64,000 bases of DNA from Roseibacillus sp. (GCA_051251855.1 JBPOGI010000004.1:32001-96000); one strand, 5' to 3'; counted from the first letter of the stretch, positions 13,818 to 32,328 are shown. Notes: generated from the letters alone by a model not told the origin. Program-made: numbers and translations.

Positions 13818-14297
13818 CTAGTAGTCGTTCGTCCATGAAGACTCTTCCGCAAGGGGAGGCAACAGAGAATGAGCTTCGCTTTGAGACTTCACCGGCATGA
13901 AACGACCGCCAATCGATGGCAATGGACGAAAACTGTCAGCCAACGTCTCCGTCCGAAACTCAAGAGCGGTGTAATCTTTCGCCAGACTCTCCATCAAGAC
14001 GTCTTGGGAACTTTGCTTGGACTGCAGAAGCTGCATTTGGGCCTGCACTCCAGCGAGTTGCTCAAGAAAATTATCTTGGTTCTCTTGCAAGCGAATCTGC
14101 AGGTTCTCCTCCACATCAACAAGCACCTCTTCCATCCGCTCGCCAACATCGGCTAACTCGACTTGCTGGGCTTCGACCTGTTGGCCTTCCTGAAACTCAG
14201 CGACCTGATTCTCAACTTCCTTATGATGGTTGAATCCAACAGAAGCCATGCCTCCTAGGGACATCGCTGCAGTGATAATGGTTAATTGTGGGCTCAT
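13818..14297 (-). CDS. Hypothetical coiled-coil protein with N-terminal anchor (pilus-cluster tail)
   Basis: Hydrophobic N-terminus, Q/E-rich heptads; ATGA overlap with the upstream gene. Confidence 0.7.
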   Translation of the reverse strand: MSPQLTIITAAMSLGGMASVGFNHHKEVENQVAEFQEGQQVEAQQVELADVGERMEEVLVDVEENLQIRLQENQDNFLEQLAGVQAQMQLLQSKQSSQDVLMESLAKDYTALEFRTETLADSFRPLPSIGGRFMPVKSQSEAHSLLPPLAEESSWTNDY

Positions 14298-14719
14298 GAT
14301 TCTTTCTGATTTTCAGTTGATGCAGGCAAGCTCAACAGCAGTGCCTTGAGGCGATTAAGTAGTAAAGTAAGCTCTTCCTCGGACTGGGCCAGATTGATGT
14401 TCTGCTCTTCAAGGACCTCCTCCATGTTCTGCCCAGAAGCATTCTCCAAAGGATTAGAAACAGTAAATTTTGAGGCATTGTCGACGATAGGCTTCAGTCC
14501 GAAGGGTTTCACGAACACCCTCTTCTTTTCCCCATCCTTCATCTCGATCCACTTCTCGATAGCTGGCGCATCGACGAGCTCTACAACCTCCCACCCCTCC
14601 GGAACCTCCCCTTGGATCTCGAAGGTCAACGAAGCCTTTTCCTGCTCTTCAGCATAAGACGGAAACATCATGCCCCAAAGGACTAGAAAAAGGCCGACTA
14701 CTTTCATTGTCAAAGTCAT
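14294..14719 (-). CDS. Hypothetical secreted protein with C-terminal helix/coiled coil
   Basis: Signal peptide ending SYA; operonic packing. Confidence 0.7.
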   Translation of the reverse strand: MTLTMKVVGLFLVLWGMMFPSYAEEQEKASLTFEIQGEVPEGWEVVELVDAPAIEKWIEMKDGEKKRVFVKPFGLKPIVDNASKFTVSNPLENASGQNMEEVLEEQNINLAQSEEELTLLLNRLKALLLSLPASTENQKES

Positions 14720-14735
14720 CTCTATTTTCAGAAAA

Positions 14736-15506
14736 TTAAGGATTTGCGTTCATCGCCTGACCTTCGGGTAGAACCGAATTAGGCACGGACTTCGACACCA
14801 AGAGATTCCAGCTTTCTAACAACTCAACACCATTGGCCTGAACTTCACGCACTTTCTGGAGATGTTCCTCTATGTCGCTCGCCAGTTGGTGAGCTTCAGC
14901 GATAGAACCCTCGTTCCATGACAAGACATTCTCAGGATACAAAACGGGCAAAGAGACGGTAAATTTTTCGAGCTCTCCGTTGAGGGACTCGACTTCCACG
15001 ATTTGCTCCACCCCCAAAGTTGTCGCAATCATTTGCGGTGAATGTGGGGCTTCGCTCCGCAATGGCTCTAGACCAGGTAATTCGTTGGCAATGAGCGCTT
15101 CGCTCTCAGGCCACGGTGAAAGCTCAACCTTCTCTACAGAAGGTGGGATTACATCCACAACTTCGGCAACCTCGGAACTCTCCATTTGAGAGGTCACAGC
15201 TCCCTCCTCGGCCACAATCACCGGCTTGGTTAGGTAGAGAAAAAGAAAGACAGCAGTAAGCGTCGTGCTAAAGAAGAGCAAGGGGGGGTAAAATCGAGTT
15301 AACGACTTAATTTCAGGTTTCTCTTCACGAGCATTCGGCAGCGGCCTTCCCTCTACTGCGATTGGAAGCGGCTCATTCCAGCGCTTTACCGGAAACGGCT
15401 CCACATTAGAAGTTGGTGTTCTAGCAATCAGTTCTGTGCCTTGATCAAGGCGTTGAATCTTATATCTTTCAGCGCTCATAGCGTGTTGCGTAGGTGATTT
15501 CGACAT
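14736..15506 (-). CDS. Hypothetical bitopic membrane protein
   Basis: Single TM (LLFFSTTLTAVFLFLYL), Pro/Glu-rich linker, C-terminal helical domain; start uncertain. Confidence 0.7.
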   Translation of the reverse strand: MSKSPTQHAMSAERYKIQRLDQGTELIARTPTSNVEPFPVKRWNEPLPIAVEGRPLPNAREEKPEIKSLTRFYPPLLFFSTTLTAVFLFLYLTKPVIVAEEGAVTSQMESSEVAEVVDVIPPSVEKVELSPWPESEALIANELPGLEPLRSEAPHSPQMIATTLGVEQIVEVESLNGELEKFTVSLPVLYPENVLSWNEGSIAEAHQLASDIEEHLQKVREVQANGVELLESWNLLVSKSVPNSVLPEGQAMNANP

Positions 15507-15924
15507 CGCTCGTCGAGGTTGGAAACTTTGTCAGAGTAAGGAGCTTAGCATTAATAACAATGTGTCGCACCACCTCCCCTTGGTCAGAAATAGCTTTCAC
15601 TCCGGGGCTCAGATTCTCGCCGGCAGCATCAAAAATGTCTCCGCTGTAGTAGATTTGAAATGCGAGAAAATTCTCATTCTGCCCTTCGGGGCTAATGCGA
15701 ACATCGATTCCGTCTGTAAAAACTCTAAAAATGAGATCGCCCTTATTAATTTCGGTGGCTTCCCCCAACTTCGTTATCACAGATTTGGTCACCTGAAAGG
15801 AACCGATCTCGCGAAATTCGGTCGTCTCCTCTCCCCTAAGCTTCGTGTCAGATGGAAGAAGTTCTCCTGCTCCCATCAAAGCGAAAGACATAAGAACAAT
15901 AGTAGCCGCAAATTTAACTCTCAT
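15469..15924 (-). CDS. Hypothetical secreted beta-rich protein
   Basis: ATG 15924 overlaps the minor-pilin stop (TAATG); signal peptide MRVKFAATIVLMSFALMGA. Confidence 0.7.
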   Translation of the reverse strand: MRVKFAATIVLMSFALMGAGELLPSDTKLRGEETTEFREIGSFQVTKSVITKLGEATEINKGDLIFRVFTDGIDVRISPEGQNENFLAFQIYYSGDIFDAAGENLSPGVKAISDQGEVVRHIVINAKLLTLTKFPTSTSDVEITYATRYER

Positions 15925-16340
15925 TACTTGCCGACATCCCAAAGTGAATCGTTAGCGGAACCAGACTTGTCGTAAATATTTCCTCCACTATCGAGACAAA
16001 CAGGCGGCACAACGGTGACGTCCACGGTAAGAGTCTTGCCCTCCAAGTCCTTGGCGGTAGGAAGACTGGTTGGGCTTCCAGGAAGATATCCTGCCACTTC
16101 TACAGCGGTAAGGCTGCTCACCGCACGTTGGTGGTTGTCCGCGAGAAATTCTCGTTGAGCCACTTCAACTTCCCGCAAAACACTGGAGGCTTCTTTGCCC
16201 TTCTGCCAATCCCCAATCGAACCCGCAGAGGCAAAGAATGCACCTGTGAGCGTCAAGAGAACCAAAATGACCACCGTCATCTCGATCAAAGTTAATCCCA
16301 AGCGCCTCTGTAAGGGACGAGAACTACCACAAAGCTTCAT
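15924..16340 (-). CDS. Type IV pilin/pseudopilin (minor)
   Basis: Class III signal RRLG|LTLIEMTVVILVLLTL with Glu5. Confidence 0.88.
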   Translation of the reverse strand: MKLCGSSRPLQRRLGLTLIEMTVVILVLLTLTGAFFASAGSIGDWQKGKEASSVLREVEVAQREFLADNHQRAVSSLTAVEVAGYLPGSPTSLPTAKDLEGKTLTVDVTVVPPVCLDSGGNIYDKSGSANDSLWDVGK

Positions 16341-16375
16341 TTCGCTAAACTATCAAAAAAAACGTAATTTAGCAC

Positions 16376-16396
16376 TGATTTTTTACGAAAAAATCA
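16376..16396. promoter_or_regulatory. AT-rich palindrome upstream of the minor pilin (internal promoter/operator candidate)
   Basis: TGATTTTTT-acg-AAAAAATCA, adjacent to a minus-strand TGcTAAATT extended -10-like element. Confidence 0.4.
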
Positions 16397-16412
16397 ACTT
16401 CGGTTCCTGAAA

Positions 16413-16826
16413 CTAGTTCTCAGCAAAAATCGCTACTGCTTCTTTAAGATTTTCCATAAAAATAGGATCACTTGTCAGCTTCTTGAACATCTTTAGTGAA
16501 CCATAGGTCAACCCCATCAGAGAGACCATCCAGAACACGCTCAGCAACACACTCCCGCCCTTCGGACTGATGATCGGTTTCAACACCGTCTTTTTCTCAA
16601 CGACCTGAGTTTTAAACATCAGCCCCCCCTCTCCTAACTTCGTGATAAGCTTGTCCGCCGACGAATTTGAATTCGCTATCATCCGATAGCGATACTTGTT
16701 AGATGGCGACACTGGCAACTCTCTTACCTTGATCCCCCGAGGTAATTTCTCTGGTAACCGCAGAGTATAGACATGAGTCTGAAGGAGTAGTTTCTCTCGA
16801 AGCCAGTGATCGACAGGGGTGAGCAT
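16413..16826 (-). CDS. Hypothetical membrane-anchored protein
   Basis: Basic N-domain plus C-terminal TM; 11 bp after pilC. Confidence 0.7.
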   Translation of the reverse strand: MLTPVDHWLREKLLLQTHVYTLRLPEKLPRGIKVRELPVSPSNKYRYRMIANSNSSADKLITKLGEGGLMFKTQVVEKKTVLKPIISPKGGSVLLSVFWMVSLMGLTYGSLKMFKKLTSDPIFMENLKEAVAIFAEN

Positions 16827-16837
16827 AATATTGAGGG

Positions 16838-17989
16838 TTAGAATCCTGAGTTCATCATCTTTGGCCCCATCATGAAGATTGGCATGAAGGTTCCGATAAA
16901 GACGGAAGCAATGAGAATAACAGCAATAATCAAAACCAGAAGGTTAAGAATGTTCGTGAAGTCGCTCATGTGGTTCTGAGCTTCCTCTTCTAACATCTCT
17001 GAAAGAAGCTTCAGTTGCATATCAAGGGAAGCGGTCCTCTCTCCAATCGCCAACATATGAACCACTTGATCGTCGGCAGAAGTATACCGTCCAAAGGCAG
17101 TTGTGATTGGAACCCCTGTGTGCTCATACTTGTCAGCTGCAGTAAGTAGCTCCTTATAAAAAGGCGTTCTTTTAACACTGTTTGCCGATACTCGAATCGA
17201 TTTTGCTAGGTTGATTCCATTTGAGTAAAGCAGCTCCATCGTACCGAGAAAGGTTGATTGACGAAGACTCATAATAAGCAAGCGAAAGACCCTCCATTTG
17301 GACATCAACAAAACCATGGCAAAGTTGCGGACCTTATCAACAAAGGCCACCGTACAAATGGCCGCGATCATTAAGGGCAAAGCAAACATCCATACGTCCT
17401 GGGTAAAGTGACTCACCTTAAAAGCAATAGCGGTGAATCCATCGGGCTCCTGCCCAACATCTGTGAGCATCTCCTCAACTTGAGGAACAATTTTCACCTG
17501 CGCCATAATGAAAGCGCCGATCAAAATCGAGATCACAATTGAAGGCATGATGGTCGCCTTCCGAATCGCGGCCTCAAACGAGAGATCTGATTTAATCCTT
17601 TTAGCCAATGCAGTAAATGCTCGGTCCAATTGACCAGAATCCGAACCAGCCTGAATCAGGCCCAACGTCATATCGTTGAATCGGCCAGTCTTGCGAAACG
17701 CCTCATGAATAGAAACACCCGCGGTAATCTCTCGATTCACTTTCATCAAGTCTCCGGAGAGGACCTTGTTAGGAAGACCTTGCGCATAGAAGCGAACGGC
17801 GTCCGCGGTGTTGATCTGAGCCTTCAGCATGGAGCCAATTCCTCGAAAGAGTTGTAGCTGCTCCTTTTTCTTGAGTGGCTTCGGTCCCGCCGGCCCAATC
17901 GTAATGAAAGGTTTAGCTGCGGGCTTGGCCTGACCTCGAGCCCCTTTTCCTGCGCTCGCGGGCGCTTGTTTTGCTGTAGCACTATTCAT
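16838..17989 (-). CDS. pilC: PilC/GspF inner-membrane platform protein
   Basis: Two T2SSF repeats (GLIQAGSDSGQLD; HMLAIGERTASLD), three TMs, FMPIF. Confidence 0.9.
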   Translation of the reverse strand: MNSATAKQAPASAGKGARGQAKPAAKPFITIGPAGPKPLKKKEQLQLFRGIGSMLKAQINTADAVRFYAQGLPNKVLSGDLMKVNREITAGVSIHEAFRKTGRFNDMTLGLIQAGSDSGQLDRAFTALAKRIKSDLSFEAAIRKATIMPSIVISILIGAFIMAQVKIVPQVEEMLTDVGQEPDGFTAIAFKVSHFTQDVWMFALPLMIAAICTVAFVDKVRNFAMVLLMSKWRVFRLLIMSLRQSTFLGTMELLYSNGINLAKSIRVSANSVKRTPFYKELLTAADKYEHTGVPITTAFGRYTSADDQVVHMLAIGERTASLDMQLKLLSEMLEEEAQNHMSDFTNILNLLVLIIAVILIASVFIGTFMPIFMMGPKMMNSGF

Positions 17990-19676
17990 CAGTATAAGTC
18001 ATATCGATGACCTTGCTGAGGGCAGCAAGATCGGTTTTTCCTTCAGCAAGGCTCTTCAAGCCGCTTTTTCTCAAGTTGGGTAACTTGCCTTCTTCTTGAA
18101 CTCTCACCTCAAGTTCATAAGGAGTGAGCACCCCTTTCGAAAGTTCATCTGAAATCTTAGGTGTAATTGGGATGATCTCCAAGATTGCTGAACGTCCTGA
18201 ATATCCGCTCTGACGGCACTCTGAACAGCCGCCCTTACGAGCTTTGAATACTGGTCGATCAGCCCACTCATCTCCAAGGTTGAAAATACGACGGTCTCGG
18301 TCCGCAATCCCATCGAGAGCCTCCTTACAGTGAGGGCATAAAACCTTGAGCAATCTCTGAGCACAGGCAGCCTTCAATGTTTGCGCGATCTTCCATCGCT
18401 CAACACCAAGCTGCTCAAAACGCTCGATAATCTGGGAAGCTCGCGGAGTGTGAATCGTTGTGAGAACCTTGTGACCAGTAACAGCCGCTTCGACCGCAAG
18501 TTCTGCAGACTCAAGGTCTCGAACCTCACCCATGAGAATAATATCTGGATCACTCCGCATAAAGGAGGTGATCATAGGCTTAAATTCATCGGCGCTTTTC
18601 AGGTCACAATGCGTTACACCAGCAATCTCATCCTCCACTGGGTTTTCCAGTGTTAGAATGTTCACCTCAGGGCGATTTAACTCGCGAAGCATCGCATTCA
18701 AGGTGGTTGACTTACCCGATCCGGTGGGACCACTCATCACAATAATACCCGCAGGCACCTTCATGACCCTATCGAGCTCAAAGAGAGTCTCGTCATCAAA
18801 AGCCAAAGAGCCCTTACCCAAGGTCACGTTAATGTGGCTCTTGTCGAGAAGTCGCATCGTGAGGTGGTAACCTCGATAGGTCTTGTGACGCTCATATCGA
18901 ATGTCAATTGGACGGTGAAAATATGAAATCGTGAAACGCCCCGAGATGCCCGGCTTGGTATTTCGTGTCTCAGTCGGGAGTTTCATCAAACTCAGGAAAA
19001 ATGCATCAATGCGATCCTTGAGTTTCATCGGAATTTCGACTTTATCCCCGAGATCGCCATCGACCCGAAAAGAATAGTAGAAGACTTCTTTCTCTACTTT
19101 GAAGTGAATATCAGACGCCCTTAGCTTGGTCGCTGTCGACAGAATTGTCGCAGCAAGTCGTGCAATTGGCTCTTCGTATTCAGTAGTAACATTGAAGTCT
19201 TTGATCTTGTCGTCGTTGTCTTCGACTTCGATCCCTTCCAACTCGGTCTGATTGGGACCTGCAGCTCCAGAGAGTCTCTCAATGGCTCCACTGATCTCTG
19301 AAGACGTTGTGACAACTTTCTCAATGCGAAAATCTGGGAATCTCAGTGACAGATACTCATCTGGAAGTTGAGACCATGGATTAGCGATTGCGACGAGAAG
19401 AGCCCCATCTGTAACGCAAACAGGCGTAAAGCCCTCCCGCGTCAGAATCGCTGGGTCACATTTTTCCAGCAAAGAAGGCTCACAAAACTCCGCAAGTTTC
19501 GGCAAAAACGAAAGGCCGTTAATCTCCGCCACAGCGGCCATAAAGATTGGTCTCGTAACTCGGTTTGCTACTTGATCGTGAGTCAAGCTTCCATGTGACG
19601 CATCATGAGTCCCCAAACATGCAAGAATCTGAGAGCTCACTACGTCGTTAAAACGAATGCCATCGAATTCAATCAT
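17982..19676 (-). CDS. pilB: PilB/GspE extension ATPase
   Basis: ASDIH, GPTGSGKSTT, LENPVE, RSDPDIILMGEVRD, TGHKVLTTIH, tetracysteine CPHC...CSEC. Confidence 0.93.
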   Translation of the reverse strand: MIEFDGIRFNDVVSSQILACLGTHDASHGSLTHDQVANRVTRPIFMAAVAEINGLSFLPKLAEFCEPSLLEKCDPAILTREGFTPVCVTDGALLVAIANPWSQLPDEYLSLRFPDFRIEKVVTTSSEISGAIERLSGAAGPNQTELEGIEVEDNDDKIKDFNVTTEYEEPIARLAATILSTATKLRASDIHFKVEKEVFYYSFRVDGDLGDKVEIPMKLKDRIDAFFLSLMKLPTETRNTKPGISGRFTISYFHRPIDIRYERHKTYRGYHLTMRLLDKSHINVTLGKGSLAFDDETLFELDRVMKVPAGIIVMSGPTGSGKSTTLNAMLRELNRPEVNILTLENPVEDEIAGVTHCDLKSADEFKPMITSFMRSDPDIILMGEVRDLESAELAVEAAVTGHKVLTTIHTPRASQIIERFEQLGVERWKIAQTLKAACAQRLLKVLCPHCKEALDGIADRDRRIFNLGDEWADRPVFKARKGGCSECRQSGYSGRSAILEIIPITPKISDELSKGVLTPYELEVRVQEEGKLPNLRKSGLKSLAEGKTDLAALSKVIDMTYTDE

Positions 19677-20248
19677 TGCTCGAATTGCCTTCTACAAATG
19701 GTTTCCCAAGATGACAAATCGAGAAGAAACATGGAAAGATAGGGAGTCATTCCCGTCTTCGCTTCGAAATAATCCGCCACGAAGGACGAAAGGTGTAAAC
19801 CCGCTACAGGGTTAATCGTTCCAAAGCCGAGAACATCGGTATCTTCCGAAAAGATCAGTGGACACCTCACCGCCGATGCGGCCTCAAGAATCGTACTGTA
19901 TTTTTCAAAGAGGTTAGATGAGCCGAGTAACTTCTCCGCAAATGGAATCAAAGAATATCTCTTCTTCACGATGGGAGCAATAGCCCGCCCCCACCCCGCG
20001 ACAGTCGAGGATTGCGCCCCCTCTTCGATTCCTCGTAACTTCGCCATCACAGGCAAGATATCACCTACGTTGACGTTGTTAGAGTCGAGGTAACTACTGA
20101 ACCCTTCTCTCTCAACCTCACGAATGATGCCTGCTGTCGTGAGAGCGGCTAACGTCTCATCACGAACAGTCACGGTCATTTCTGGTATATCAGTCGTAGC
20201 AACCGAATTAGCAGGAGATGCTACAGGGGATGATTCCACTACTTGCAT
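19673..20248 (-). CDS. Hypothetical cytoplasmic protein, possibly a stand-alone GspE/PilB N-domain-like module
   Basis: RCPLIFSEDTDVLGFGTINP resembles the PilB N-domain pattern (GFTPVCVTDGALLVAIANP); ATGA overlap with pilB. Confidence 0.6.
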   Translation of the reverse strand: MQVVESSPVASPANSVATTDIPEMTVTVRDETLAALTTAGIIREVEREGFSSYLDSNNVNVGDILPVMAKLRGIEEGAQSSTVAGWGRAIAPIVKKRYSLIPFAEKLLGSSNLFEKYSTILEAASAVRCPLIFSEDTDVLGFGTINPVAGLHLSSFVADYFEAKTGMTPYLSMFLLDLSSWETICRRQFEQ

Positions 20249-20283
20249 TACATTGAATGGGGGATCTGCTTCGAGCCAACCGG

Positions 20284-21969
20284 CTATCGACGCGTATTCT
20301 GAACACCACGAGAGAGGTCGCTACGAATCGCACGCATAGTGCGACAGTAGTCAGCTTCATGTGCCGCTCCTGGAGCAACTGGATTCACTGAATCGTGGCC
20401 CTTTTGAAGGGACAGAGTCTGAGTCAATCGCTGAGTGGTCGCGTAATTTCGCGCCTCGTCTTCTGGAGAGTACGAAGTAGGAGTGACCACAAAAATCAAG
20501 CTTGAGCTCTCTTTGGAAGTCTCCTTGCTCTTGAACAGGAAGTTCAAGAATGGAATATCACCGAAGAACGGGACCTTTGTGCCGTCCTTTGACTCAACCT
20601 CGGAATAGAAGCCTCCGATCAAGAGAGAATGACCATTTGGAATCCTTGCGATGGTATCGATCATCGACTCGGCAACTCGAGGATAGCTGTTGCCAGTGAT
20701 GCCTTCGATTTGTTCAACAACCTGAGCTGAGCGGGGCCTCATTTTGAGACGAATCGTTCCATCAGGCAAGAGGGACGGAGTTACAGCAACAGTGATTCCA
20801 ATCTCACGTGTAGTTGCCGGATCACCCACGGGGTCGCTTTCATCTACAGTATAGCGAACCTCTTCGGTCACAGTCACATTGCCATCACCTGAATTGGAGC
20901 CAGTGACACTCGTAGTAATAATTGGCACTCGATCGATAATTGAGATCACAGCCTGCTCATTATCCTCTGTAATCACAACAGGGTTAGACTTCTGAGTCAC
21001 GAGGCTGCCTTCATTAAGAGCTCTAATCACCCCATTCAATTGAAAAGGAGAGAGGACGAAGTTACTATCACTGGAGGAGGCGCCTGACACAGCCGAAGAG
21101 GTGACACCAAAGAGTGAACTCAGGTCTGCAATTGCCCCGAGACCGAGACCAGTTGCGCCAAGGGTCGAAGCCCAGTTGGTTCCAAGGCGAGAAACTGCAG
21201 TGCTGTTTACAGATAGAATCTTCACTTCAACCACGATCTGGCCTTGAGGGCGGTCAACCGCCTTGAAGAAATTCTCAACACGTTCAATGCGCTGAGGAGT
21301 ATCGATAACAACTACCGTATTCGTCTTCGGCTCATAGTTTACGAGTCCGGTTCCAGGAGACAGGTAAGGCTGAACCATGTTCTTGATTCCCTCAATGTCA
21401 CTAGGACGGAGATACCGGAGCTGGTAGTGCCATTCCTTACTAGGGAGGTCGGTCATCTGGTCTTTGGTCAGCGCATAGACAGTGTTCCCCTTCTCGTACA
21501 TCTCAATCCCATATTGGAACGCGAGTTCTTCCATCTTTCCAAGAGGATCTCCTGGAATAAGACGACCAGTGACTCTGAACTCTTCCGACGCAATACGAGG
21601 ATTGTGGAAATACTGCCGATTGGCATTTTCAGCCAACAACTGGAAGACATCGTTCAGACTTGCATCAGTAAGTTGATACGCACCGGAGCTCTTATCAATA
21701 GCGGGAACCACCTCGGGCAACTGCTCTTCCATGGGCACTCCTTCAGGTACTGTATTCGAGGTAGCTGGTGGAAGTTCAACCTCAGCAGGCTCTGGAAGAT
21801 AGTCATCAAACGGAGGCAACTCCTGAGGAGGAACTTCAGTGGGCGATTCCCCCTCGCCAGCTGGGCGGGCAGGTGGAAGTTCTTCAGGCGATTGAGCGAA
21901 TAGCGGCAAGGCCATTGCTAGTGGGAGGACGACGGCAAGCGTCTTCAGTTTTTTAGGCAGCAGTTTCAT
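20284..21969 (-). CDS. pilQ: Secretin (PilQ/GspD family)
   Basis: Start at ATG 21969, signal peptide, Pro/Glu linker, N3 (KTNTVVVID...DRPQGQIVVEVKI), C-domain (IGITVAVTP, LLIGGF, KVPFFGDIPFLNFLFK, LIFVVTP). Confidence 0.92.
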   Translation of the reverse strand: MKLLPKKLKTLAVVLPLAMALPLFAQSPEELPPARPAGEGESPTEVPPQELPPFDDYLPEPAEVELPPATSNTVPEGVPMEEQLPEVVPAIDKSSGAYQLTDASLNDVFQLLAENANRQYFHNPRIASEEFRVTGRLIPGDPLGKMEELAFQYGIEMYEKGNTVYALTKDQMTDLPSKEWHYQLRYLRPSDIEGIKNMVQPYLSPGTGLVNYEPKTNTVVVIDTPQRIERVENFFKAVDRPQGQIVVEVKILSVNSTAVSRLGTNWASTLGATGLGLGAIADLSSLFGVTSSAVSGASSSDSNFVLSPFQLNGVIRALNEGSLVTQKSNPVVITEDNEQAVISIIDRVPIITTSVTGSNSGDGNVTVTEEVRYTVDESDPVGDPATTREIGITVAVTPSLLPDGTIRLKMRPRSAQVVEQIEGITGNSYPRVAESMIDTIARIPNGHSLLIGGFYSEVESKDGTKVPFFGDIPFLNFLFKSKETSKESSSLIFVVTPTSYSPEDEARNYATTQRLTQTLSLQKGHDSVNPVAPGAAHEADYCRTMRAIRSDLSRGVQNTRR

Positions 21970-22015
21970 AGTTTGGCAAGGGTGAGATAAGTAAAGAAAG
22001 AGGAAGAACAGTCCT

Positions 22016-22624
22016 CTAGTCTGGCCCGGGGCCACCGGGAAGATTTAGGTCGAGTTTGATATTCTTAGGCTGACTGGTATCAACTTCATGGATTCCACCA
22101 GCGATGCTTTGGCCATGACTCCCCTGTTTGATTCCTTTGGGGAGGCGGGTCATCTTACGAAGCCCAAGCTTCTTAGACTTCATTTCTCTAAAGTAGGCTC
22201 CAGTAGAGCGAGACCCTTCGAAGCGGAGAACTACGGTTTGCCCTTGGAAGGCAAGTTCTAACGTTTCTCCCTTTGAGAGTGGAGGCACACCGCTAAGAAC
22301 AACCCGATCGCCCATTGGGTCGATCATTGTGACAGGGAGCGCATCAAGAATTCTCTGGAGTGGAATCGTTGGCTTAGGCTGGACTACAGCTACAACCTTC
22401 TTCTGCTTACTAAGCTTAGCCTTCTTAGGATCTTGAGGACGACCGAACATGTCGAACTCTTTCCCTTGAATCGCAAGCAGCTCTTTACGACCTTCGATAA
22501 AATCATCGATCGCTCCAAGCTCATCCCGAGCATCGATTGAAAGAGTCATCTCGCCGCTCTTTTGCTCTGCTGCTTGAGCAAATGAGGCCGAGGCAAAGAT
22601 AAGAGTATATAAGAGATTTTTCAT
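22016..22624 (-). CDS. PilP/GspC-position periplasmic protein
   Basis: Signal peptide, DMFG motif followed by a Pro-rich linker and beta domain; lies between the PilO-like gene and the secretin; TAATG coupling. Confidence 0.55.
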   Translation of the reverse strand: MKNLLYTLIFASASFAQAAEQKSGEMTLSIDARDELGAIDDFIEGRKELLAIQGKEFDMFGRPQDPKKAKLSKQKKVVAVVQPKPTIPLQRILDALPVTMIDPMGDRVVLSGVPPLSKGETLELAFQGQTVVLRFEGSRSTGAYFREMKSKKLGLRKMTRLPKGIKQGSHGQSIAGGIHEVDTSQPKNIKLDLNLPGGPGPD

Positions 22625-23163
22625 TAGTTGATCCACGCAGAGTAGGAGATTTCGGCCTCGAGTAGTTGACCACTGTCTTGCGGCTTGATACCGATAGAAT
22701 TAAGACTGAGATTTGGCAGACGAGACTCCAACGAAAGGAGGCTTTCTTGAAGGGCCTGATAAGTCCCTGTCACGGAAATATTGTAGGTGACGCTATTCTG
22801 TTTACTTGCAGCGCCGATCCCGGTCGCTCTATCGACAAAGGCAAAGTCCTTTTGCTTAAACTTGTCCCCTGCCTTGTATTTTGAGGAAATGTCCTTAAGG
22901 AGGCCTGTCACTGAACCCACATCTGAGGACTTGAGCAGAGTATCCCAGTCCCTCTTCTTCACTTTGTATTTCTGCAGTTGCGCTTCCACTCCGGCAGCGG
23001 CCTTTTCGGCCTGGAGGTTAGCGGTCTGCACCTTCAACCTGCTATCATACTCCTTCACAACGCTTGCCTTTTTCGATGACAAGAAGCCAAAGATGACAAT
23101 GAGCAATAAGAGTGGTACAATGGCACCAAAGACAAGAATTCCGTTTTTGTATCGTGGGTTCAT
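22624..23163 (-). CDS. PilO/GspM-like protein
   Basis: N-terminal TM, coiled coil, YNISVTGTYQALQESLLSLESR..LSLNSIGI ferredoxin-like pattern. Confidence 0.75.
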   Translation of the reverse strand: MNPRYKNGILVFGAIVPLLLLIVIFGFLSSKKASVVKEYDSRLKVQTANLQAEKAAAGVEAQLQKYKVKKRDWDTLLKSSDVGSVTGLLKDISSKYKAGDKFKQKDFAFVDRATGIGAASKQNSVTYNISVTGTYQALQESLLSLESRLPNLSLNSIGIKPQDSGQLLEAEISYSAWIN

Positions 23164-23169
23164 AATGCT

Positions 23170-24915
23170 CTAGAGTTTAGTGAGTGGGACTGCCAATGGA
23201 TCACCAGCTTCAATCCGCTGAGTGATCTCCAAAGAAAACTTATAAGGATAAGAACTACCGGAGCTTTTAGGAGCGTCCGACTTGAAGCTCGAGTTCTCTG
23301 ATAGATCGAGGTTTACGAGGAGACTGCGTGTGTTCTTTTTTAAATCAAAAGAACTATTTCCCGTGGTCTGCCGAACGGTCGAGAACACCTCCCCCATCCC
23401 AGCTTGAGTGTTGAGCTTAACGAGATTGGCAGTAGCCTCTTCCCTTGCAAAACCAGTAATAGTCCATTTCTTGACGAGACCCACTGTTCCCAACTTAGCG
23501 GTTGATGCCTGCTCAGCCGAAGCCCTGTGGTCAGCACTTTCGAATTTGACCGAACCATCAAGCGGGAACAAACTCGAAAAGAGTTCAAGCGTCACCCACC
23601 CTTTTGAACGATCCGCAAGATACTTCTCGGTCGTCCTGACTTTCGACAAATCATTCGAGAGGGCGAGAGTCGCGCTACTCGCCTTTTCTCCATCTTTCCA
23701 AACCGGGGAGGAAGTCTTTTTAAAGGAGGTAAAGGCTACAAAAGCACCGAAGAGAACACAGGCAGCAACCCCAACACGGGCAAGGATGCGACCAATGCGA
23801 AGAATCTTCATATCCACCGCTCCAGGGATGAGTTCAAGTTCATCCTGAGTAGGGCTTAAGAAGTCTTGCAAATGATACCCATCTGCAATGTTTGCTCCAA
23901 AGGTCTCAGTTTCTGAAAACGCTAAGCCAGCATTATCGTCCTCAATCTGAAAAGTGCTTAGCTCAATCGGTATTGATTCACCGTCTGTAGCAACAGGAGG
24001 AACGAAAACCTGATACTCTAAAGAAAAGAGAATTCCAGCCAACTCAGTCTCTAAGGAAGGCTCTCGGTTCACACGGCAGTCGAATACTTGAAGCTTCCAT
24101 TCAGCTAGCTCGACTGATGCAGCAGTGGTCGCGAAAGTACTCTCGAGACTATGAGGCAATTGCTTTCCAGTATGCTTGATGGACTTCAGAAGAATGAGTT
24201 CTCCTTCCGCTGAATAGAACCCGAAAAAGGAAAACTCCTCGAAACGCAGCATTGTGCAGAACGCTTTCTCCTGGGGACCAAGCGTCCGAGGTAGTCGGGA
24301 AAGAAGAAGCAAGGGAGAACTTAAGCCGATGGTACGAATGGGAAAATTTGAACGATTGCCCAGATTTCTAAATTCTTGGAGAATGGTTTCCCCTCGTCGG
24401 CTAGTAGCAACAGCACAGCCAGCATTAGCGACCTGCGGAGACGCAGGAGTAGGAAAGACTTGGAAAGAGAGTGACTCGTTAGAAAGAGTGCGATCCTGAA
24501 GAACAGAAGCCGGGTCCTCACGAATTAGGTCACGAAGAGTCGCTCCTGGTTGAATTTCGTTCCAATCTTGAATCGGAAACTCGAAAACAGATGCTTCTTG
24601 ATTGAGATGAAGAACCACTCCAAGAGAACGGCAGCTAGTCGGCAAGACTTCGAGCTGCAGGTAGCTAATATACTCTTCTAGGACAGAGCTATCAGCCTTA
24701 GTTGGAAGTGGAGTTAAGTTGGCCCACTTATTTTCAGCTTCACTCCAGAAGTAGGCTAAGTAGCGGGAACCCGATTCAAATAAGTGAACCTGGTGAGGAA
24801 GAAGATGAGCATCACGATACCAATCGGGATTCTTACCGCGCGAAGTATCCTTGAGGAGGCTACGAGCATAGGCGTAGTCTTTCAAGAAATGAGGTGCTGA
24901 TTTTTCGTCTTCCAT
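23170..24915 (-). CDS. GspL-like / fused PilM-PilN protein
   Basis: About 370-aa cytoplasmic domain, one TM (VGVAACVLFGAFVAF), periplasmic domain with WTITGFA; occupies the pilM/pilN position. Confidence 0.6.
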   Translation of the reverse strand: MEDEKSAPHFLKDYAYARSLLKDTSRGKNPDWYRDAHLLPHQVHLFESGSRYLAYFWSEAENKWANLTPLPTKADSSVLEEYISYLQLEVLPTSCRSLGVVLHLNQEASVFEFPIQDWNEIQPGATLRDLIREDPASVLQDRTLSNESLSFQVFPTPASPQVANAGCAVATSRRGETILQEFRNLGNRSNFPIRTIGLSSPLLLLSRLPRTLGPQEKAFCTMLRFEEFSFFGFYSAEGELILLKSIKHTGKQLPHSLESTFATTAASVELAEWKLQVFDCRVNREPSLETELAGILFSLEYQVFVPPVATDGESIPIELSTFQIEDDNAGLAFSETETFGANIADGYHLQDFLSPTQDELELIPGAVDMKILRIGRILARVGVAACVLFGAFVAFTSFKKTSSPVWKDGEKASSATLALSNDLSKVRTTEKYLADRSKGWVTLELFSSLFPLDGSVKFESADHRASAEQASTAKLGTVGLVKKWTITGFAREEATANLVKLNTQAGMGEVFSTVRQTTGNSSFDLKKNTRSLLVNLDLSENSSFKSDAPKSSGSSYPYKFSLEITQRIEAGDPLAVPLTKL

Positions 24916-24934
24916 GGGAAAAAATTAGAGAGTG

Positions 24935-24970
24935 AAATCCCCCTCCAGAAACGAAGTTCTGGAGGGGAAA
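24935..24970 (-). terminator. Strong hairpin after the major pilin (leaky terminator/mRNA stabiliser)
   Basis: CCCCTCCAGAA-6 nt-TTCTGGAGGGG with a weak U-tract on the minus strand. Confidence 0.75.
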
Positions 24971-24993
24971 GTAGAAAGGTAGCTTAAGCTATC

Positions 24994-25479
24994 TTATTGA
25001 ATGTTCTTAGGAAGGTAGAATTCTGCAGTCTCATCACCAGTTTCAGCACTAGTCATGTAGGGAGTACCCAAAGCAGGAATTGTCTCGAAGTCAGATGCTC
25101 CAGCAACGAAAGACTCGGCGCTGTCAGGGTGTACGGGGAGGTCACCCAAGTTCTCAGTTTCAACATACTTCTGTGGTCCGAAAACCTCCTCTTGGAGAAC
25201 TCCAGCAGTGCCTTCGTTTCCAGCAGCAGTCCAAGCAGCAGAATAGGTGATATCGACAGCGCCGGTATCAAGTCCCATGATGTTAGAGTGTGAGCGCACA
25301 CCTTGCTGAGCGTTACGGATCAAGAGAGCCGCGTTCGCACGGTCTGAACCACGCATCCACGCACGGGCGCCGATGAAGAGTACAGAGATGAGAGAAAGAA
25401 GAACGAGGATTACAACAGTAAGCTCGATCAAGGTCATTCCCTTATTAGACTTGTTAGTCTTGGTATTAGTCAGTTTCAT
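24994..25479 (-). CDS. Major type IV pilin
   Basis: NKG|MTLIELTVVILVLLSLISVLFIGARAW; A-rich leader, own downstream hairpin, biased codon usage. Confidence 0.9.
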   Translation of the reverse strand: MKLTNTKTNKSNKGMTLIELTVVILVLLSLISVLFIGARAWMRGSDRANAALLIRNAQQGVRSHSNIMGLDTGAVDITYSAAWTAAGNEGTAGVLQEEVFGPQKYVETENLGDLPVHPDSAESFVAGASDFETIPALGTPYMTSAETGDETAEFYLPKNIQ

Positions 25480-25543
25480 TTTATTTCGGTTTGTTTTGTT
25501 TTGTTTGTTTTGCGTTCGGTAAAACGCGATTTTCGAGAGGCAC

Positions 25544-26815
25544 TTAGAGTCCGTCGGAACGGTTCATACGTGCATTCTCAAAAGCTTCTTCGGTGATGAG
25601 GCCTTTGCGCAAAAGCTGCGTCAAATTGGCATCCCACTCAACGTTACCAGCGGCTCGGATAACGTCCTCCAAAGACTGTTTGCCTTTGGAGTAATTCATA
25701 ATCGAACTTGCGGTTCGGTCATCATTGTTCTGTAAAAATTCATAGGTTAGCACTCGACGCTCGACGCCTTTCAAGAGTCCCTGAGACATGATGCAAACCA
25801 GCATCTCGCCAAGTCGGTTGAGAACTGCCTGTTGGCGCTCTGAGGGATACATCTCCAAAATTCGACCCATTGTCTTAACGGCTCCCGTTGTGTGCAGAGT
25901 AGAAAGAACAAGGTGACCTGTTTGAGCGGCCTCGAGACAGGTGTCCATTGCTTCACGGTCTCGAATCTCCCCTACTAAAATGACATGAGGAGCTTTACGA
26001 AGAACATCTTTCAGTCCCTGACGATAGGACTCGAGATCTCGCCCTACTTCTTGCTGTGTAACAACACTCTTGGAAGGAACCTTTGCTCCACTTCCGTCGG
26101 ACGCATCCTGGTCGTGCGGATATACATACTCGACGGGATCTTCGACTGTAACGATATGCTTAGCGGTATTCTGTCGAAGCCAATCAATAATGGAAGCCAG
26201 AGTTGTCGACTTACCAGAGCCAGTGGGTCCCGTCACCAAACAAAGACCTGCCCTGCGTTTCACAGCTTGGCGCAGACAATGCATCGTGTCTTCATCGATA
26301 CCCAAGACATCCAAAGGAGGAATATTATCATTAAGAATCCGGCAAGTCAGTCCGAGCCCCGATGAAGAAAGGTGAGCTTGAATCCGAAGACGCCCGGAGT
26401 CTTCACCGGAGGGCAACGGGATACCATTGCATGAAAAATCATCCACTTGGTCGGTGCGCATCTTCTCAAACGCTTGGCGAACCTTAGCGTCTCCCCTCTC
26501 GTCTGTCGTGGCAGCACTTCCAAACCCATGATTCGCGGTCTCCCGGTTCAAAATAAGGGCCTCATAGATGCTCTTCACTCTCTCTCGGGAGAGGACGCCC
26601 AAAGAGTCCACACACTCCATGCCGTTGTTAGTCTCAACAAATACATGACGATCTGAACGCACCTGAATATCTGAAACACCTCTCTTCTCGCATTCTTCGA
26701 AGATAACGGCTAATAATTGGGTCCCCGACATTGAGTCGGTGGAAATCACCTCAGGAATAGCAGGGGCGCTATTTCCGTTGACGGCAGGAATAGGAGGGGG
26801 GGCAAGTGAACTCAT
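25544..26815 (-). CDS. pilT: PilT/PilU-family retraction ATPase (divergent)
   Basis: VSDIQ, GPTGSGKSTT, HIVTVEDPVE, QQEVG, LRKAPHVILVGEIRD, AQTGHLVLSTLH; no tetracysteine; AIRNLIRE not conserved. Confidence 0.88.
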   Translation of the reverse strand: MSSLAPPPIPAVNGNSAPAIPEVISTDSMSGTQLLAVIFEECEKRGVSDIQVRSDRHVFVETNNGMECVDSLGVLSRERVKSIYEALILNRETANHGFGSAATTDERGDAKVRQAFEKMRTDQVDDFSCNGIPLPSGEDSGRLRIQAHLSSSGLGLTCRILNDNIPPLDVLGIDEDTMHCLRQAVKRRAGLCLVTGPTGSGKSTTLASIIDWLRQNTAKHIVTVEDPVEYVYPHDQDASDGSGAKVPSKSVVTQQEVGRDLESYRQGLKDVLRKAPHVILVGEIRDREAMDTCLEAAQTGHLVLSTLHTTGAVKTMGRILEMYPSERQQAVLNRLGEMLVCIMSQGLLKGVERRVLTYEFLQNNDDRTASSIMNYSKGKQSLEDVIRAAGNVEWDANLTQLLRKGLITEEAFENARMNRSDGL

Positions 26816-27657
26816 GATCTTCTATCCCCTTCTACCTCTTTGTTTCTGGTCAAAGTCTCCAATACGGACTTTGTTTCTTGATTCAGATGCTCAAGATAAC
26901 GTTTTCTTGACTCGAACTCATATTTCTTAGCTTCGGAAAATTGTTCCCATCGACCATCGGTCTTCATTCCAGCGACCAAGCCTTCGTAATTCCCCAAAAT
27001 TTCGGGAATCATTTTGCTGTAGGTATAGATATCCTGGGTAGCCTCTAGATGTTCTTGCTCCTTAGATGTGCGAGCAGCAAAGACAAGGTCGTAAGCGGCT
27101 TGAGCAGCGGTCAAAAGACTGAGAGGGCTTTCGTTATCGGAGAGGCTGGTCTCCAAAGTCTTCAAAGAGAGGTCACGAACTGCCATCTCTGACTCCATCA
27201 TTTCCGAGGCGAAACCTTCCCAGAGAAACATCTGATAGATAGCGTAGTTGGCAAAGTTGCGAGGATCCATTTTCCATGCTACCGCCAACTTTTTCTCGAT
27301 TCGCGCCATCGCATAATCTTGGTAGAGTTCCTTCAGCTCTTCAGGAGCTTTTCCGTCGGTCTTAGACTCCCTCATCTTTGTAACCCAATTGAAAAGCTCT
27401 TGATCTGGGCGGCTGCCTTCAGCCAATTCAGGTGAAGCCTCAATGGAACCGACCCCACGGTCCCAAAAGCGAGTAATTGGCCCCTGCAAAGCCATTCCAA
27501 CGGTTCGTCCAAATGGACTCTTTGCCATGGCCCCTGGGTTAGGCTGATAGTTGAAATGCCCTTCTTCTTCGAGAGAAGGAGAAGTCAAAGCGACAAGGAC
27601 TGCGCCCGCGAGAAAAACCGGAGCAACAAATCTGATAGTATCAATTTTGGTGTTCAT
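26812..27657 (-). CDS. Hypothetical membrane-anchored helical protein (PilG/Xap-like position)
   Basis: N-terminal TM, AWKMDPRNFANY helical-repeat-like motif; ATGA overlaps on both sides. Confidence 0.65.
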   Translation of the reverse strand: MNTKIDTIRFVAPVFLAGAVLVALTSPSLEEEGHFNYQPNPGAMAKSPFGRTVGMALQGPITRFWDRGVGSIEASPELAEGSRPDQELFNWVTKMRESKTDGKAPEELKELYQDYAMARIEKKLAVAWKMDPRNFANYAIYQMFLWEGFASEMMESEMAVRDLSLKTLETSLSDNESPLSLLTAAQAAYDLVFAARTSKEQEHLEATQDIYTYSKMIPEILGNYEGLVAGMKTDGRWEQFSEAKKYEFESRKRYLEHLNQETKSVLETLTRNKEVEGDRRS

Positions 27658-28415
27658 GCTTTAGCGGTGGTGCGGTAGGCCAAAAAGGAACCTGCCGAGG
27701 TGATGAGGGAAAGCCCTCCGAGGTAGACTAGGATGTTGAGAAAGAGAGTAGTCGTGAGGTGGCCCATCTGAAAAACAAGCTGCTCTGTTAGGTCCGCCAA
27801 GTGATACTGAGGCGAGATGGCGTAGAGGAGGCGAATCAACCCATTGGTTTCAACCTTGGTGGCAACCTCCAGATAACCGACTCCATAAAGCCCGTAGAAA
27901 GTAACCCCTGCAGTAAAGAGATAACCAATTAATGTTCCAAAACGGCTGCCAAGAGCCGTTGCCAACATCATCAATGGAAGGACTACTACGAGGAACAATA
28001 CACCATATTGAAGATTAGTGAGAATCCATGAACCAACGTTGGCATGAGGAGCCGCACCCAGACAGCATACAAGAACAGCTACTAGGACGAGCGGAACAAG
28101 AACGGCAGCATGAGCGAGCCAAACTTCGCAGAGTTGACGGATAGACCCCTGCCCCATGCTGTGAAAATAGGTTCCTAAGCCAGACTGGACATTTTGAGCA
28201 CCCTGCCGAGCGGCCTGCCCGAAGAGCCAAAAAGTAGTGACTAACCAGAGCAGAACCCAAGCCGCCTGAGCGCGAGCCGGCTCGATGAGACCAAGTGCAA
28301 ATTCGCTAGGAACGAGCACGGGAAGAAGAAACGGAAGAGCGCCGACACAGAACAACGCCACGACCCAAGCCTTGCGCACGAGCAAGGTTCGAAGAGTGAT
28401 TTTGAAGAGGTTCAT
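27654..28415 (-). CDS. ABC-2 type permease (PilI/GldF-like)
   Basis: About 6 TM segments, follows the ABC ATPase. Confidence 0.8.
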   Translation of the reverse strand: MNLFKITLRTLLVRKAWVVALFCVGALPFLLPVLVPSEFALGLIEPARAQAAWVLLWLVTTFWLFGQAARQGAQNVQSGLGTYFHSMGQGSIRQLCEVWLAHAAVLVPLVLVAVLVCCLGAAPHANVGSWILTNLQYGVLFLVVVLPLMMLATALGSRFGTLIGYLFTAGVTFYGLYGVGYLEVATKVETNGLIRLLYAISPQYHLADLTEQLVFQMGHLTTTLFLNILVYLGGLSLITSAGSFLAYRTTAKA

Positions 28416-28434
28416 TACTTTTAGGTTAAGTCTA

Positions 28435-29103
28435 TTAGTTCAAAAATTGGCGAAGCTCTCCCCAAGACATATCGGGAGACTGCTGGTGATTGAGGATGCC
28501 ATCGCTGATAACGAGTGCGCTTGGCACGGGCATTTCATCAAAATCGGGGTGAGCACTAACTACTCGCACAACGTTGCTCGTTTCTTGAGCCCATCGATCA
28601 ATGAAGGCTTGGCGAGTAGGTGCATCGAGTCCAGTGAAGGGTTCGTCTAAGAAAATGATATCTTGGTCGTCATTGCGGAAACCAAATTCGGCGAGCAAGA
28701 GGTTCACCTTCCTTTTATTTCCGGTAGAGAGTTTTCCGTAAGGCTTACTGAGGTCTAACTCTATTTGCTGAGCAAACTCTAGGGCCTCAACTGTCTTCTT
28801 CTTCCCAAGCAGAGACTTCAGGATTGCGGGGGCCTTGAGCTCTTGATCGAAAACAAGGTCTTCTGAGATGAAGCGGCAAAACCCTTCGACTTGGTATTCC
28901 CCCTCCAAAGGCTTAATCATCCCACAGAGAGTACGGAACAAAGTTGTTTTCCCTCTCCCATTGCGACCGAGCAAATAGTGAGTTCCCAAGCCTAAAGAAA
29001 TCGTTTCTCCGACTTCGGCAAGCCTTTGGTCGTACCCAATTGCAAGACCGCTCGAGAGAACAATCTCGGAGGTTTTGTTGTGGGCTTTTGACGCGGTTTT
29101 CAT
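28435..29103 (-). CDS. ABC transporter ATP-binding protein (PilH-like)
   Basis: GRNGRGKT, LSTGN signature variant, IIFLDEPFTGLD, VVSAH. Confidence 0.9.
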   Translation of the reverse strand: MKTASKAHNKTSEIVLSSGLAIGYDQRLAEVGETISLGLGTHYLLGRNGRGKTTLFRTLCGMIKPLEGEYQVEGFCRFISEDLVFDQELKAPAILKSLLGKKKTVEALEFAQQIELDLSKPYGKLSTGNKRKVNLLLAEFGFRNDDQDIIFLDEPFTGLDAPTRQAFIDRWAQETSNVVRVVSAHPDFDEMPVPSALVISDGILNHQQSPDMSWGELRQFLN

Positions 29104-29203
29104 AAGGACAGCAAGATGTTCAATAAAACTTTACTAAATTCACTGCCTATGACAAGAAATTGAATGTTCGAATTTCAGAGTTTCTCGGGAAGCAGCTGGT
29201 TGA

Positions 29204-29232
29204 AATTTAAGAAATCCGGACAAAATAGTCAA
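29204..29232 (-). promoter_or_regulatory. Sigma70-like promoter of the pilus operon
   Basis: Minus strand TTGACT-17 bp-TAAATT with AT-rich upstream DNA, about 100 bp before the ABC ATG. Confidence 0.65.
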
Positions 29233-32325: not shown

Positions 32326-32328
32326 CGT

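What the first reader, a model, noticed from the sequence alone, without database searches (positions are those of the whole stretch)
13818..29232. Hybrid type IV filament machine that fits neither canonical T4aP nor T2SS
Seen: 17 co-oriented, often translationally coupled genes behind one sigma70-like promoter. Order: ABC ATPase, permease, helical protein, PilT, major pilin, GspL-like fusion, PilO-like, PilP-like, secretin, free N-domain-like protein, PilB, PilC, unknown, minor pilin, four unknowns. Known: PilT implies retraction (T4aP), whereas a single fused cytoplasmic/TM/periplasmic alignment protein is T2SS-like. T4aP and T2SS normally have several minor pilins; here there is only one, and no recognisable PilC/PilY1 adhesin or prepilin peptidase in the window. 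The gene set also differs from the Akkermansia Amuc_1098-1102 locus. Inference: a distinct, probably undescribed Verrucomicrobiaceae type IV filament subtype for adhesion, motility, uptake or secretion.
Basis: partly seen in the sequence, partly recalled or inferred. Interest (0 to 1): 0.85.

Follow-up and report, generated by a model that had tools for sequence, protein, structure and literature searches.

The report
Third pilus machine of Verrucomicrobiales
This real 18-gene cluster, conserved across many Verrucomicrobiales bacteria, encodes a type IV filament machine separate from the genome's two other such systems and likely builds a retractable pilus capped by a large tip protein encoded elsewhere in the genome; it appears to be an undescribed variant of a known kind of machine.

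Summary
The cluster is conserved in 28 of 61 related genomes and was found only in the order Verrucomicrobiales in a 401-genome phylum sample. It is separate from the genome's own T2SS and Amuc_1098-1102 (MUL2) locus. Its PilB, PilC and PilT form long-branch clades of unresolved origin.

A three-gene minor-pilin cassette ending in a ~650-690-aa PilX/GspK-like pilin occurs in all 28 cluster genomes, lies beside the cluster in 9, and lies about 270 kb away here. The prepilin peptidase is also elsewhere. A fused alignment protein is not T2SS-specific, because the MUL2 PilM-PilN is fused too.

The unusual features that hold are a free-standing GSPII (PilB N-domain) protein, a PilM/GspL-intermediate alignment protein, a linked ABC-permease-helical trio resembling Myxococcus PilGHI, and five conserved unknown proteins. 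The best reading is a retractile adhesive pilus; the function is untested. The scan noted the same system before in two other genomes. Verdict: new variant of a known kind.

The parts
28435..29103 (-). ABC ATPase, 222 aa (PilH-like position; Walker A, signature variant, Walker B and H-loop visible in the sequence)
   Evidence: Pfam ABC_tran E 3e-10; same-locus in 22 of 27 loci after dropping one antisense hit
27654..28415 (-). ABC-2-type permease, 253 aa (PilI-like)
   Evidence: 5 of 20 family members hit ABC2_membrane_3, best E 3e-7; fused to the next gene in L031
26812..27657 (-). Membrane-anchored helical protein, 281 aa (PilG/Xap-like lead only)
   Evidence: One N-terminal TM; Atlas look-alikes with TPR_14 at 0.82-0.86, under the 0.9 mark; stays linked to ABC and permease when the trio moves
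25544..26815 (-). Divergent PilT-family ATPase, 423 aa; Walker A/B, Asp and His boxes intact, two insertions, C-terminal AIRNLIRE-type motif (recalled name) replaced
   Evidence: TIGR01420 251 bits against a cut-off of 319; alignment; PilT side of the trees
24994..25479 (-). Likely major pilin (pilin1), 161 aa, G|MTLIE
   Evidence: N_methyl hit; variable C-terminus and 2-3 tandem copies in some relatives; E5 in 27 of 27
24926..24947 (-). Terminator-like hairpin just after pilin1
   Evidence: 20 of 29 pilin1 genes in relatives have MFE below -15 kcal/mol in the next 70 nt, against 1-9 of 20-27 for six non-pilin genes and 13 of 26 for pilin2; no GC control
23170..24915 (-). Fused alignment protein L581: actin-like PilM/GspL-type cytoplasmic domain, one TM helix, PilN/PilO-type periplasmic domain
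   Evidence: AF2 pLDDT 87; PilM Z 11.4, rmsd 4.5, 262 aligned; EpsL Z 10.0, rmsd 4.3, 232 aligned; PilO Z 6.5, rmsd 3.2, 90 aligned at residues 438-570
22624..23163 (-). PilO/GspM-like protein, 179 aa
   Evidence: NF040576 GspM E 1.5e-5; hhalign against verrucomicrobial GspM 70%, E 4e-5
22016..22636 (-). PilP/GspC-position protein, 206 aa (assignment by position only)
   Evidence: No family hit; in one reading frame with the secretin in L101; present in 27 of 27 loci
20284..21969 (-). Secretin, 561 aa, with Secretin_N and Secretin domains; no AMIN or lipoprotein-type hit
   Evidence: under the cut-offs of the PilQ, GspD, MshL, YscC and Amuc_1098 models
19673..20248 (-). Free-standing GSPII / PilB N-terminal-type domain protein (u191)
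   Evidence: AF2 pLDDT 91; the top 7 of 48,161 chains are all PilF/XpsE/PilB/MshE N-domains, best Z 12.0, rmsd 3.4, 143 aligned; Foldseek E 7.6e-4
17982..19676 (-). Divergent PilB/GspE extension ATPase, 564 aa, with its own MshEN-type N-domain and four-Cys motif
   Evidence: clade HMM above 1000 bits in 7 of 401 genomes, all others at or below 297
16838..17989 (-). PilC/GspF platform protein, 383 aa
   Evidence: Two T2SSF domains; its own clade
16413..16826 (-). Unknown u137: N-terminal domain with a C-terminal hydrophobic segment; core member
   Evidence: 40 of 40 full-length loci; alignment
15924..16340 (-). Conserved minor pilin (pilin2), 138 aa, G|LTLIE; likely FimU/GspH-position subunit
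   Evidence: found elsewhere in 5 of 5 genomes whose locus lacks it
15469..15942 (-). Unknown u157: N-terminal hydrophobic leader and a conserved domain
   Evidence: Atlas lipocalin-like lead at 0.83 only; travels with pilin2
14736..15506 (-). Unknown u256: single-TM protein with a conserved C-terminal region
   Evidence: 30 of 40 full-length loci
14294..14719 (-). Unknown u141: N-terminal hydrophobic leader, conserved PxGW motif
   Evidence: 22 of 40 full-length loci
13818..14297 (-). Unknown u159: N-terminal hydrophobic segment, conserved FRPL and LLPP motifs
   Evidence: 29 of 40 full-length loci

Best explanation
The cluster encodes a self-contained type IV filament machine of Verrucomicrobiales that likely builds a retractable, type IVa-like pilus for gripping surfaces or particles. 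Shown: the parts list, its conservation and the co-occurring tip cassette. Inferred steps: (1) The genome's single detected prepilin peptidase matures the pilins. (2) The V-, W- and large X-type pilins plus pilin2 prime the fibre and place the ~600-residue X domain at the tip as an adhesin. (3) PilB on PilC polymerises pilin1, guided by L581/O179/P206 through the secretin. (4) The cluster's own PilT retracts the fibre. (5) The ABC-permease-helical trio assists pilin handling as PilGHI does in Myxococcus. (6) The free GSPII protein u191 acts as an adaptor or regulator at the motor.
For: Complete extension, retraction, platform, alignment and secretin set. PilT is in 40 of 40 full-length loci, with intact catalytic motifs, on the PilT side of the ATPase tree (99*; 100*). 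Pilin1 behaves like a major pilin: variable, tandemly duplicated, followed by a hairpin. The X-type pilin is found in all 28 L581-positive genomes, and 30 of the 33 others lack it. It lies within 15 kb of L581 in 9 genomes of 3 families. Twelve genomes with T2SS GspL and Amuc_1101 lack both L581 and X, so X tracks this cluster. X has 5 copies in G024 and 2 in G044, as expected of variable adhesins. A separate canonical T2SS exists in the same genome. In M. xanthus, PilG/H/I are described as essential for pilin translocation (PMC3724824, passages).
Against: No experiment or expression data tie the genes to a fibre. Codon bias does not single out pilin1 (49th percentile). Several parts lean towards T2SS: EpsL aligns over 232 of its 238 residues and L581 appears to lack the PilM 2B subdomain and the first nucleotide-binding motif (inferred from DSSP spacing and the QxHL consensus). 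O179 is nearest GspM, and the secretin has no AMIN hit. PilB alone can be grouped with proteobacterial GspE (AU p 0.51) or the genome's own GspE (p 0.42). The window's own pilin1 has no Cys, although 16 of 27 family members have three. The X domain has no known fold or family, so 'adhesin' is inferred from position and variability. Three genomes carry X without the cluster. Homology of the ABC trio to PilGHI was not tested directly.
Confidence: 0.55

Rival explanations
1. A second T2SS-like secretion machine: a short periplasmic endopilus pushes folded proteins through the secretin, PilT recycles it, and the X pilin is a GspK-like cap.
For: GspL-like coverage of L581, GspM-like O179, AMIN-less secretin, V-W-X order like GspI-J-K. 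AU tests do not reject grouping PilB with GspE.
Against: PilT is in every full-length locus, and Denise et al. note that PilT was lost in T2SS (PMC6668835, passages). A canonical T2SS is already present. Pilin1 is variable and duplicated, and no GspG model hit it. A 600-residue cap is large for a periplasmic piston (inference).
Confidence: 0.2
2. A DNA-uptake (competence) pilus: the retractile fibre pulls DNA through the secretin to ComEC.
For: Retraction ATPase and secretin are present. ComEC is in 58 of 61 genomes, including G000.
Against: ComEC is present regardless of the cluster. Counting short-frame HHH_3 hits as ComEA-like, and setting aside ~770-870-aa frames as probable Tex (recalled), they occur in 14 of 28 cluster genomes and 11 of 33 others, and not in G000 at E 1e-9. 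No competence gene was among the recurrent neighbours listed.
Confidence: 0.12
3. A contact or substrate-capture device: the X tip binds polysaccharide or other cells, and retraction delivers material to the envelope, with the ABC trio and the four downstream envelope proteins as the receiving end.
For: The ABC trio and four exported or membrane unknowns are conserved with the machine. A pilus-like role in glycan attachment is proposed for the separate MUL2 locus in this family (PMC13174399, passages).
Against: The permease is of the ABC-2 exporter type, not an importer with a binding protein. No glycan-processing gene was among the recurrent neighbours listed. X has no lectin hit.
Confidence: 0.1

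Closest known systems
Type IVa pilus of Myxococcus xanthus (pil cluster with PilG/PilH/PilI)
   Same: PilB, PilT, PilC, major pilin, alignment subcomplex, secretin and a linked ABC transporter with a partner protein. M. xanthus PilG/H/I are required for pili (PMC3724824 passages).
   Different: PilM and PilN equivalents are fused and GspL-like. There is a free GSPII protein, no PilY1 hit but a giant PilX/GspK-like pilin, and five unknown conserved proteins. All core proteins score under the curated cut-offs. Direct homology to PilG/PilI was not tested.
Type II secretion system (GspC-M)
   Same: Single-chain cytoplasmic/TM/periplasmic alignment protein, GspM-like partner, short secretin, and a I-J-K-like three-pilin cassette.
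   Different: Dedicated PilT, variable duplicated major pilin with no GspG hit, ABC trio. The genome's real T2SS is a separate locus.
Akkermansia Amuc_1098-1102 / MUL2 locus (PMC13174399; PMC4960237 seen in search listings only)
   Same: Same order of bacteria, fused PilM-PilN-type protein, secretin.
   Different: A different locus in this genome (C9). L581 shows no profile match to Amuc_1101 (hhalign 0.5%). The secretin scores 56 bits against a cut-off of 750 for Amuc_1098. The cluster was not found in 28 sampled genomes of genus g3, while MUL2 was in 6 of 6.
MSH pilus
   Same: Mostly one locus, no peptidase in the locus (Denise et al. say this of all MSH loci), MshEN-type N-domain.
   Different: The secretin scores 109 bits against the MshL cut-off of 250, no other Msh model was hit, and PilT lies in the locus. 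No MSH sequence was in my trees.
Pseudomonas megaplasmid pilus loci (pQBR103 type)
   Same: Their PilB and PilC join this clade in some trees.
   Different: The join is flagged as long-branch attraction and is not recovered when T4bP is included under the mixture model. Gene order differs, and no accessory family of this cluster hits those loci.

Membership tests
Type IV filament superfamily (generic model) | ATPase, inner-membrane platform and major pilin in one cluster | tested here: met
   definition from PMC6668835
T4aP | PilT-family retraction ATPase | tested here: met
   PilT side of the trees and intact motifs, though 251 bits against a cut-off of 319
T4aP | Type IVa-style prepilin (short leader, E5) | tested here: met
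   G|M/L/V/F..E5 in 27 of 27 pilin1 sequences; first residue mostly Met
T4aP | Separate nucleotide-binding PilM and PilN | tested here: not met
   Single chain; the first phosphate-loop position reads QxHL. The MUL2 PilM-PilN is also fused.
T4aP | Minor pilin set of FimU/PilV/PilW/PilX type | tested here: inconclusive
   Four minor pilins fit by order and E5 pattern, but no named family model hit V, W or X
T4aP | PilY1/PilC adhesin | tested here: inconclusive
   None in the window or cassette by Pfam/NCBIfam; the whole genome was not searched for PilY1
T4aP | PilB and PilC nest in a validated T4aP clade | tested here: inconclusive
   Long branch. Grouping with the genome's own T4aP-type pair plus one verrucomicrobial pair is rejected (AU p 0.002), but PilB alone with own PilB1 is not (p 0.10). 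Few references.
T2SS | No PilT | tested here: not met
   PilT in 40 of 40 full-length loci
T2SS | GspG major pseudopilin and GspD/E/F above family cut-offs | tested here: not met
   No TIGR01710 hit; GspD 126/351, GspE 282/630, GspF 116/424 bits
T2SS | GspL-type fused alignment protein and GspM | tested here: met
   By architecture and fold and weak profile matches; tied with PilM within about 1.4 Z
MSH | MshA, MshE, MshG, MshL, MshM | tested here: inconclusive
   Only weak MshL and MshEN hits; the TFFscan profiles and an MSH tree reference were not available
Amuc_1098-1102 / MUL2 | Members of the NF042912, NF042425, NF038287, NF045709 and NF042424 families | tested here: not met
   No window protein reaches them; the true locus is on C9
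Myxococcus PilGHI module | Homology of the three proteins to PilG, PilH and PilI | not tested
   No Myxococcus sequences were held; only family type and an Atlas lead at 0.82
Any TFF type | MacSyFinder TFFscan class; observed filament | not testable with these tools
   Needs TFFscan models and microscopy

The most novel reading that the evidence does not exclude
The cluster is a separate deep lineage of type IV filament machines, of the same rank as MSH or T4bP, confined to Verrucomicrobiales. In it a free GSPII protein supplies a docking domain in trans to switch or hold the PilB and PilT motors, a giant swappable tip pilin of unknown fold replaces PilY1, and four unknown envelope proteins form a new sub-machine. 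It could be the source of the unexplained fimbriae at prostheca tips in this order.
Probability: 0.25. Interest if true: 0.75.

Novelty: new variant of a known kind. Interest (0 to 1): 0.5.

Why it matters
Aquatic Akkermansiaceae are reported to be enriched on particles, and their attachment has been credited to the MUL2 locus alone (PMC13174399, passages). This work shows a further, complete, PilT-bearing filament machine in about half of the sampled relatives, not found in the 28 sampled genomes of genus g3, with a defined candidate tip adhesin. It gives named genes to knock out in cultured strains (Roseibacillus persicicus, Haloferula rosea, Luteolibacter algae carry it). It also offers a natural test of what a stand-alone PilB N-domain does, and a candidate for the fimbriae seen at Verrucomicrobium prostheca tips (PMC12283558, passage; no link shown).

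Tried and rejected
Complex prediction of the L581 cytoplasmic domain with u191 gave no verdict (score 0.00). No RNA holder was listed for the region. The sigma70 scan was at chance level. Codon-bias ranking was uninformative.

A natural u191-PilB fusion was sought in 107 loci and not found; the 802-aa 'PilB' of L035 is an upstream read-through with no u191 match. Sequence searches of solved structures with L581 and X profiles found nothing. The RLG-type c-di-GMP motif (recalled pattern) was absent from 82 u191 and 25 PilB sequences, but it also hit only 2 of 33 reference ATPases, so the test is weak.

Sister-grouping with Pseudomonas megaplasmid pili, IncI TraJ or T4bP was set aside as probable long-branch attraction. 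One AU test (with Acinetobacter PilB) did not finish and was not repeated. One weak L581 hit outside the order (G329, 17.7 bits) was dismissed. A locus search with the L581 alignment failed for lack of conserved stretches, so PilB was used.

Literature searches listed no paper describing this cluster. Supplements of PMC6668835 and PMC13174399 were not opened and could list these loci as 'generic' or T4aP systems.
Full report
Observation. The region is about 48-50% GC against 53-54% for the large contigs. Pfam and NCBIfam identify an ABC ATPase, a PilT-family ATPase, a secretin, a PilB/GspE ATPase, a PilC/GspF platform and two prepilins; every core protein is under its curated family cut-off. 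The proposed promoter is at chance level. The nearest named relatives are Roseibacillus (PilB 93% identical to R. persicicus), Haloferula and Luteolibacter.

It is a third system in this genome. The genome separately encodes a T2SS (GspD, H, G, K with neighbours on C1, and a GspE/GspF pair), the Amuc_1098-1102 locus (C9), a PilB-PilB-PilC-pilin locus (C10), three PilT/PilU genes above cut-off and one prepilin peptidase. Those copies score about 600, 406 and 367-423 bits on the PilB/GspE, GspF and PilT models, against 299, 116 and 251 for the window's proteins.

Conservation. L581 is found in 28 of 61 related genomes, in 16 of 37 genera and 4 families of the order. Gene order is nearly fixed in the 27 loci fetched. 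Among 80 further named loci, 40 were full length (some from the same genomes): PilT, L581, secretin, PilB, PilC and u137 are in 40 of 40, pilin1 in 38, u191 in 37, pilin2 in 31, the permease in 30 and u159 in 29. Some misses come from the flank limit or my ORF filter. Parts missing from a locus turn up elsewhere: pilin2-u157-u256 in 5 of 5 genomes checked, and the permease in 5 of 5, four of which lacked it in the fetched locus. In 401 genomes across the phylum, L581 and the PilB clade were found in the same 7 genomes, all in this order; the next PilB scored 297 bits against more than 1000, with three candidates scored per genome. 342 stretches in the GTDB collection encode a PilB relative, of which the best 80 were seen. 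Kin are not independent, so these are counts, not statistics.

Unknown proteins. L581 folds as an actin-like domain, one TM helix and a periplasmic domain. PilM (Z 11.4, rmsd 4.5, 262 aligned) and EpsL (Z 10.0, rmsd 4.3, 232 of 238 aligned) are close, and an uncharacterised Bacteroides protein ranks first (Z 12.4); PilO matches the periplasmic part (Z 6.5). From secondary-structure spacing it appears to lack PilM subdomain 2B (inference). Fusion alone is not diagnostic, since a ~600-aa Amuc_1101 PilM-PilN hit is found in 31 of 31 order genomes, and L581 shows no profile match to it. u191 is a free-standing GSPII domain: the seven best of 48,161 chains are N-domains of PilF, XpsE, PilB and MshE, while PilB keeps its own N-domain. 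O179 is GspM/PilO-like. The permease is ABC-2 type in 5 of 20 members, is fused to the helical protein in one locus, and P206 shares a reading frame with the secretin in another. u137, u157, u256, u141 and u159 are conserved but unassigned.

The missing tip. Clustering the neighbours of all loci revealed a recurrent cassette of V-, W- and large X-type pilins. In this genome it lies at C8:~324,600-327,700, about 270 kb from the cluster. X (690 aa, G|YAALL, no E5) is in 31 of 61 genomes: all 28 with L581, plus G006, G047 and G055, which lack the clade PilB; 30 genomes lack both. It is within 15 kb of L581 in G002, G022, G024, G025, G027, G038, G046, G050 and G054. W accompanies X in 29 and V in 27 of 30 short loci. 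Twelve genomes with T2SS GspL and Amuc_1101 have neither L581 nor X. X has no family or solved relative.

Phylogeny. Cluster PilB, PilC and PilT each form a supported clade on a long stem. The PilT-like protein is on the PilT side. Placement is unresolved: PilB can be grouped with proteobacterial GspE (p 0.51), own GspE (0.42) or own PilB1 (0.10). The PilB+PilC concatenate rejects grouping with the genome's own T4aP-type pair plus one verrucomicrobial pair (p 0.002), a constraint that also splits a Manganitrophus pair from its neighbour. Joins with megaplasmid or T4bP sequences carry long-branch warnings. All trees were quick searches with few references and no MSH.

Mechanism. The most likely reading is a retractile adhesive pilus (0.55): assembly by PilB/PilC from a tip of pilin2, V, W and X; exit through the secretin; retraction by the cluster's PilT; help from a PilGHI-like exporter. 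Parts and co-occurrence are shown; every functional step is inferred. Rivals are T2SS-like secretion (0.2), DNA uptake (0.12; ComEC and ComEA-like genes do not track the cluster) and substrate capture or contact (0.1).

Prior knowledge. Denise et al. (PMC6668835; passages and section 13) do not use the word Verrucomicrobia in the main text and leave 884 systems as generic; supplements were not seen. PMC13174399 (passages) treats MUL2, a different locus. PMC3724824 (passages) supports the PilGHI precedent. PMC10540074 and PMC12283558 (passages) do not describe the cluster in the passages seen. Five searches listed no description. The scan's own notes e1-4184288 and e1-4219036 describe look-alike loci in two other genomes.

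Verdict. Real, conserved, apparently undescribed, and a variant of the type IV pilus design rather than a new kind of machine. Interest 0.5.

Noticed in passing
G000 C1:605,600-606,100 (L008:5628-6104): A lone paralog of pilin1 (40% identical) lies away from the cluster; it may be an alternative major pilin for the same machine.
   Followed up: partly
G000 C6:723.7-729 kb (L210), C7:135-137.5 kb (L209), C8:291.9-294.6 kb (L208): Three further pilin cassettes, one ending in a 1106-aa K/X-like protein and one with weak Verru_Chthon cassette hits; probably serve the MUL2 or T2SS systems (untested).
   Followed up: partly
G000 C1:934.8-937.3 kb (L211:4840-7281) and C7:234-235 kb (L212:5998-6960): A second Amuc_1098-family secretin above cut-off without neighbouring pilus genes, and a short 320-aa secretin-like protein.
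   Followed up: no
G024 (C7, C16 twice, C39, C41) and G044 C65: The large X-type tip pilin is expanded to 5 and 2 copies.
   Followed up: no
L085, L111, L112: Loci that lack pilin1 between PilT and L581; whether the gene lies elsewhere in those genomes was not checked.
   Followed up: no
window 29797-33057: ECF sigma factor followed by a Ser/Thr kinase with PEGA and FGE-sulfatase domains, directly upstream on the same strand; not seen beside the cluster in the related loci.
   Followed up: no
L166 and L255 (Pseudomonas megaplasmids, pQBR103 type): A divergent pilus locus (secretin, three unknowns, ATPase, pilins, platform) runs directly into three radical SAM genes in both plasmids.
   Followed up: partly
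L245, L246, L247, L248, L249: Where the pilin2-u157-u256 block is detached from the cluster it follows a ~327-aa gene on the same strand in all five genomes; that gene was not identified.
   Followed up: no
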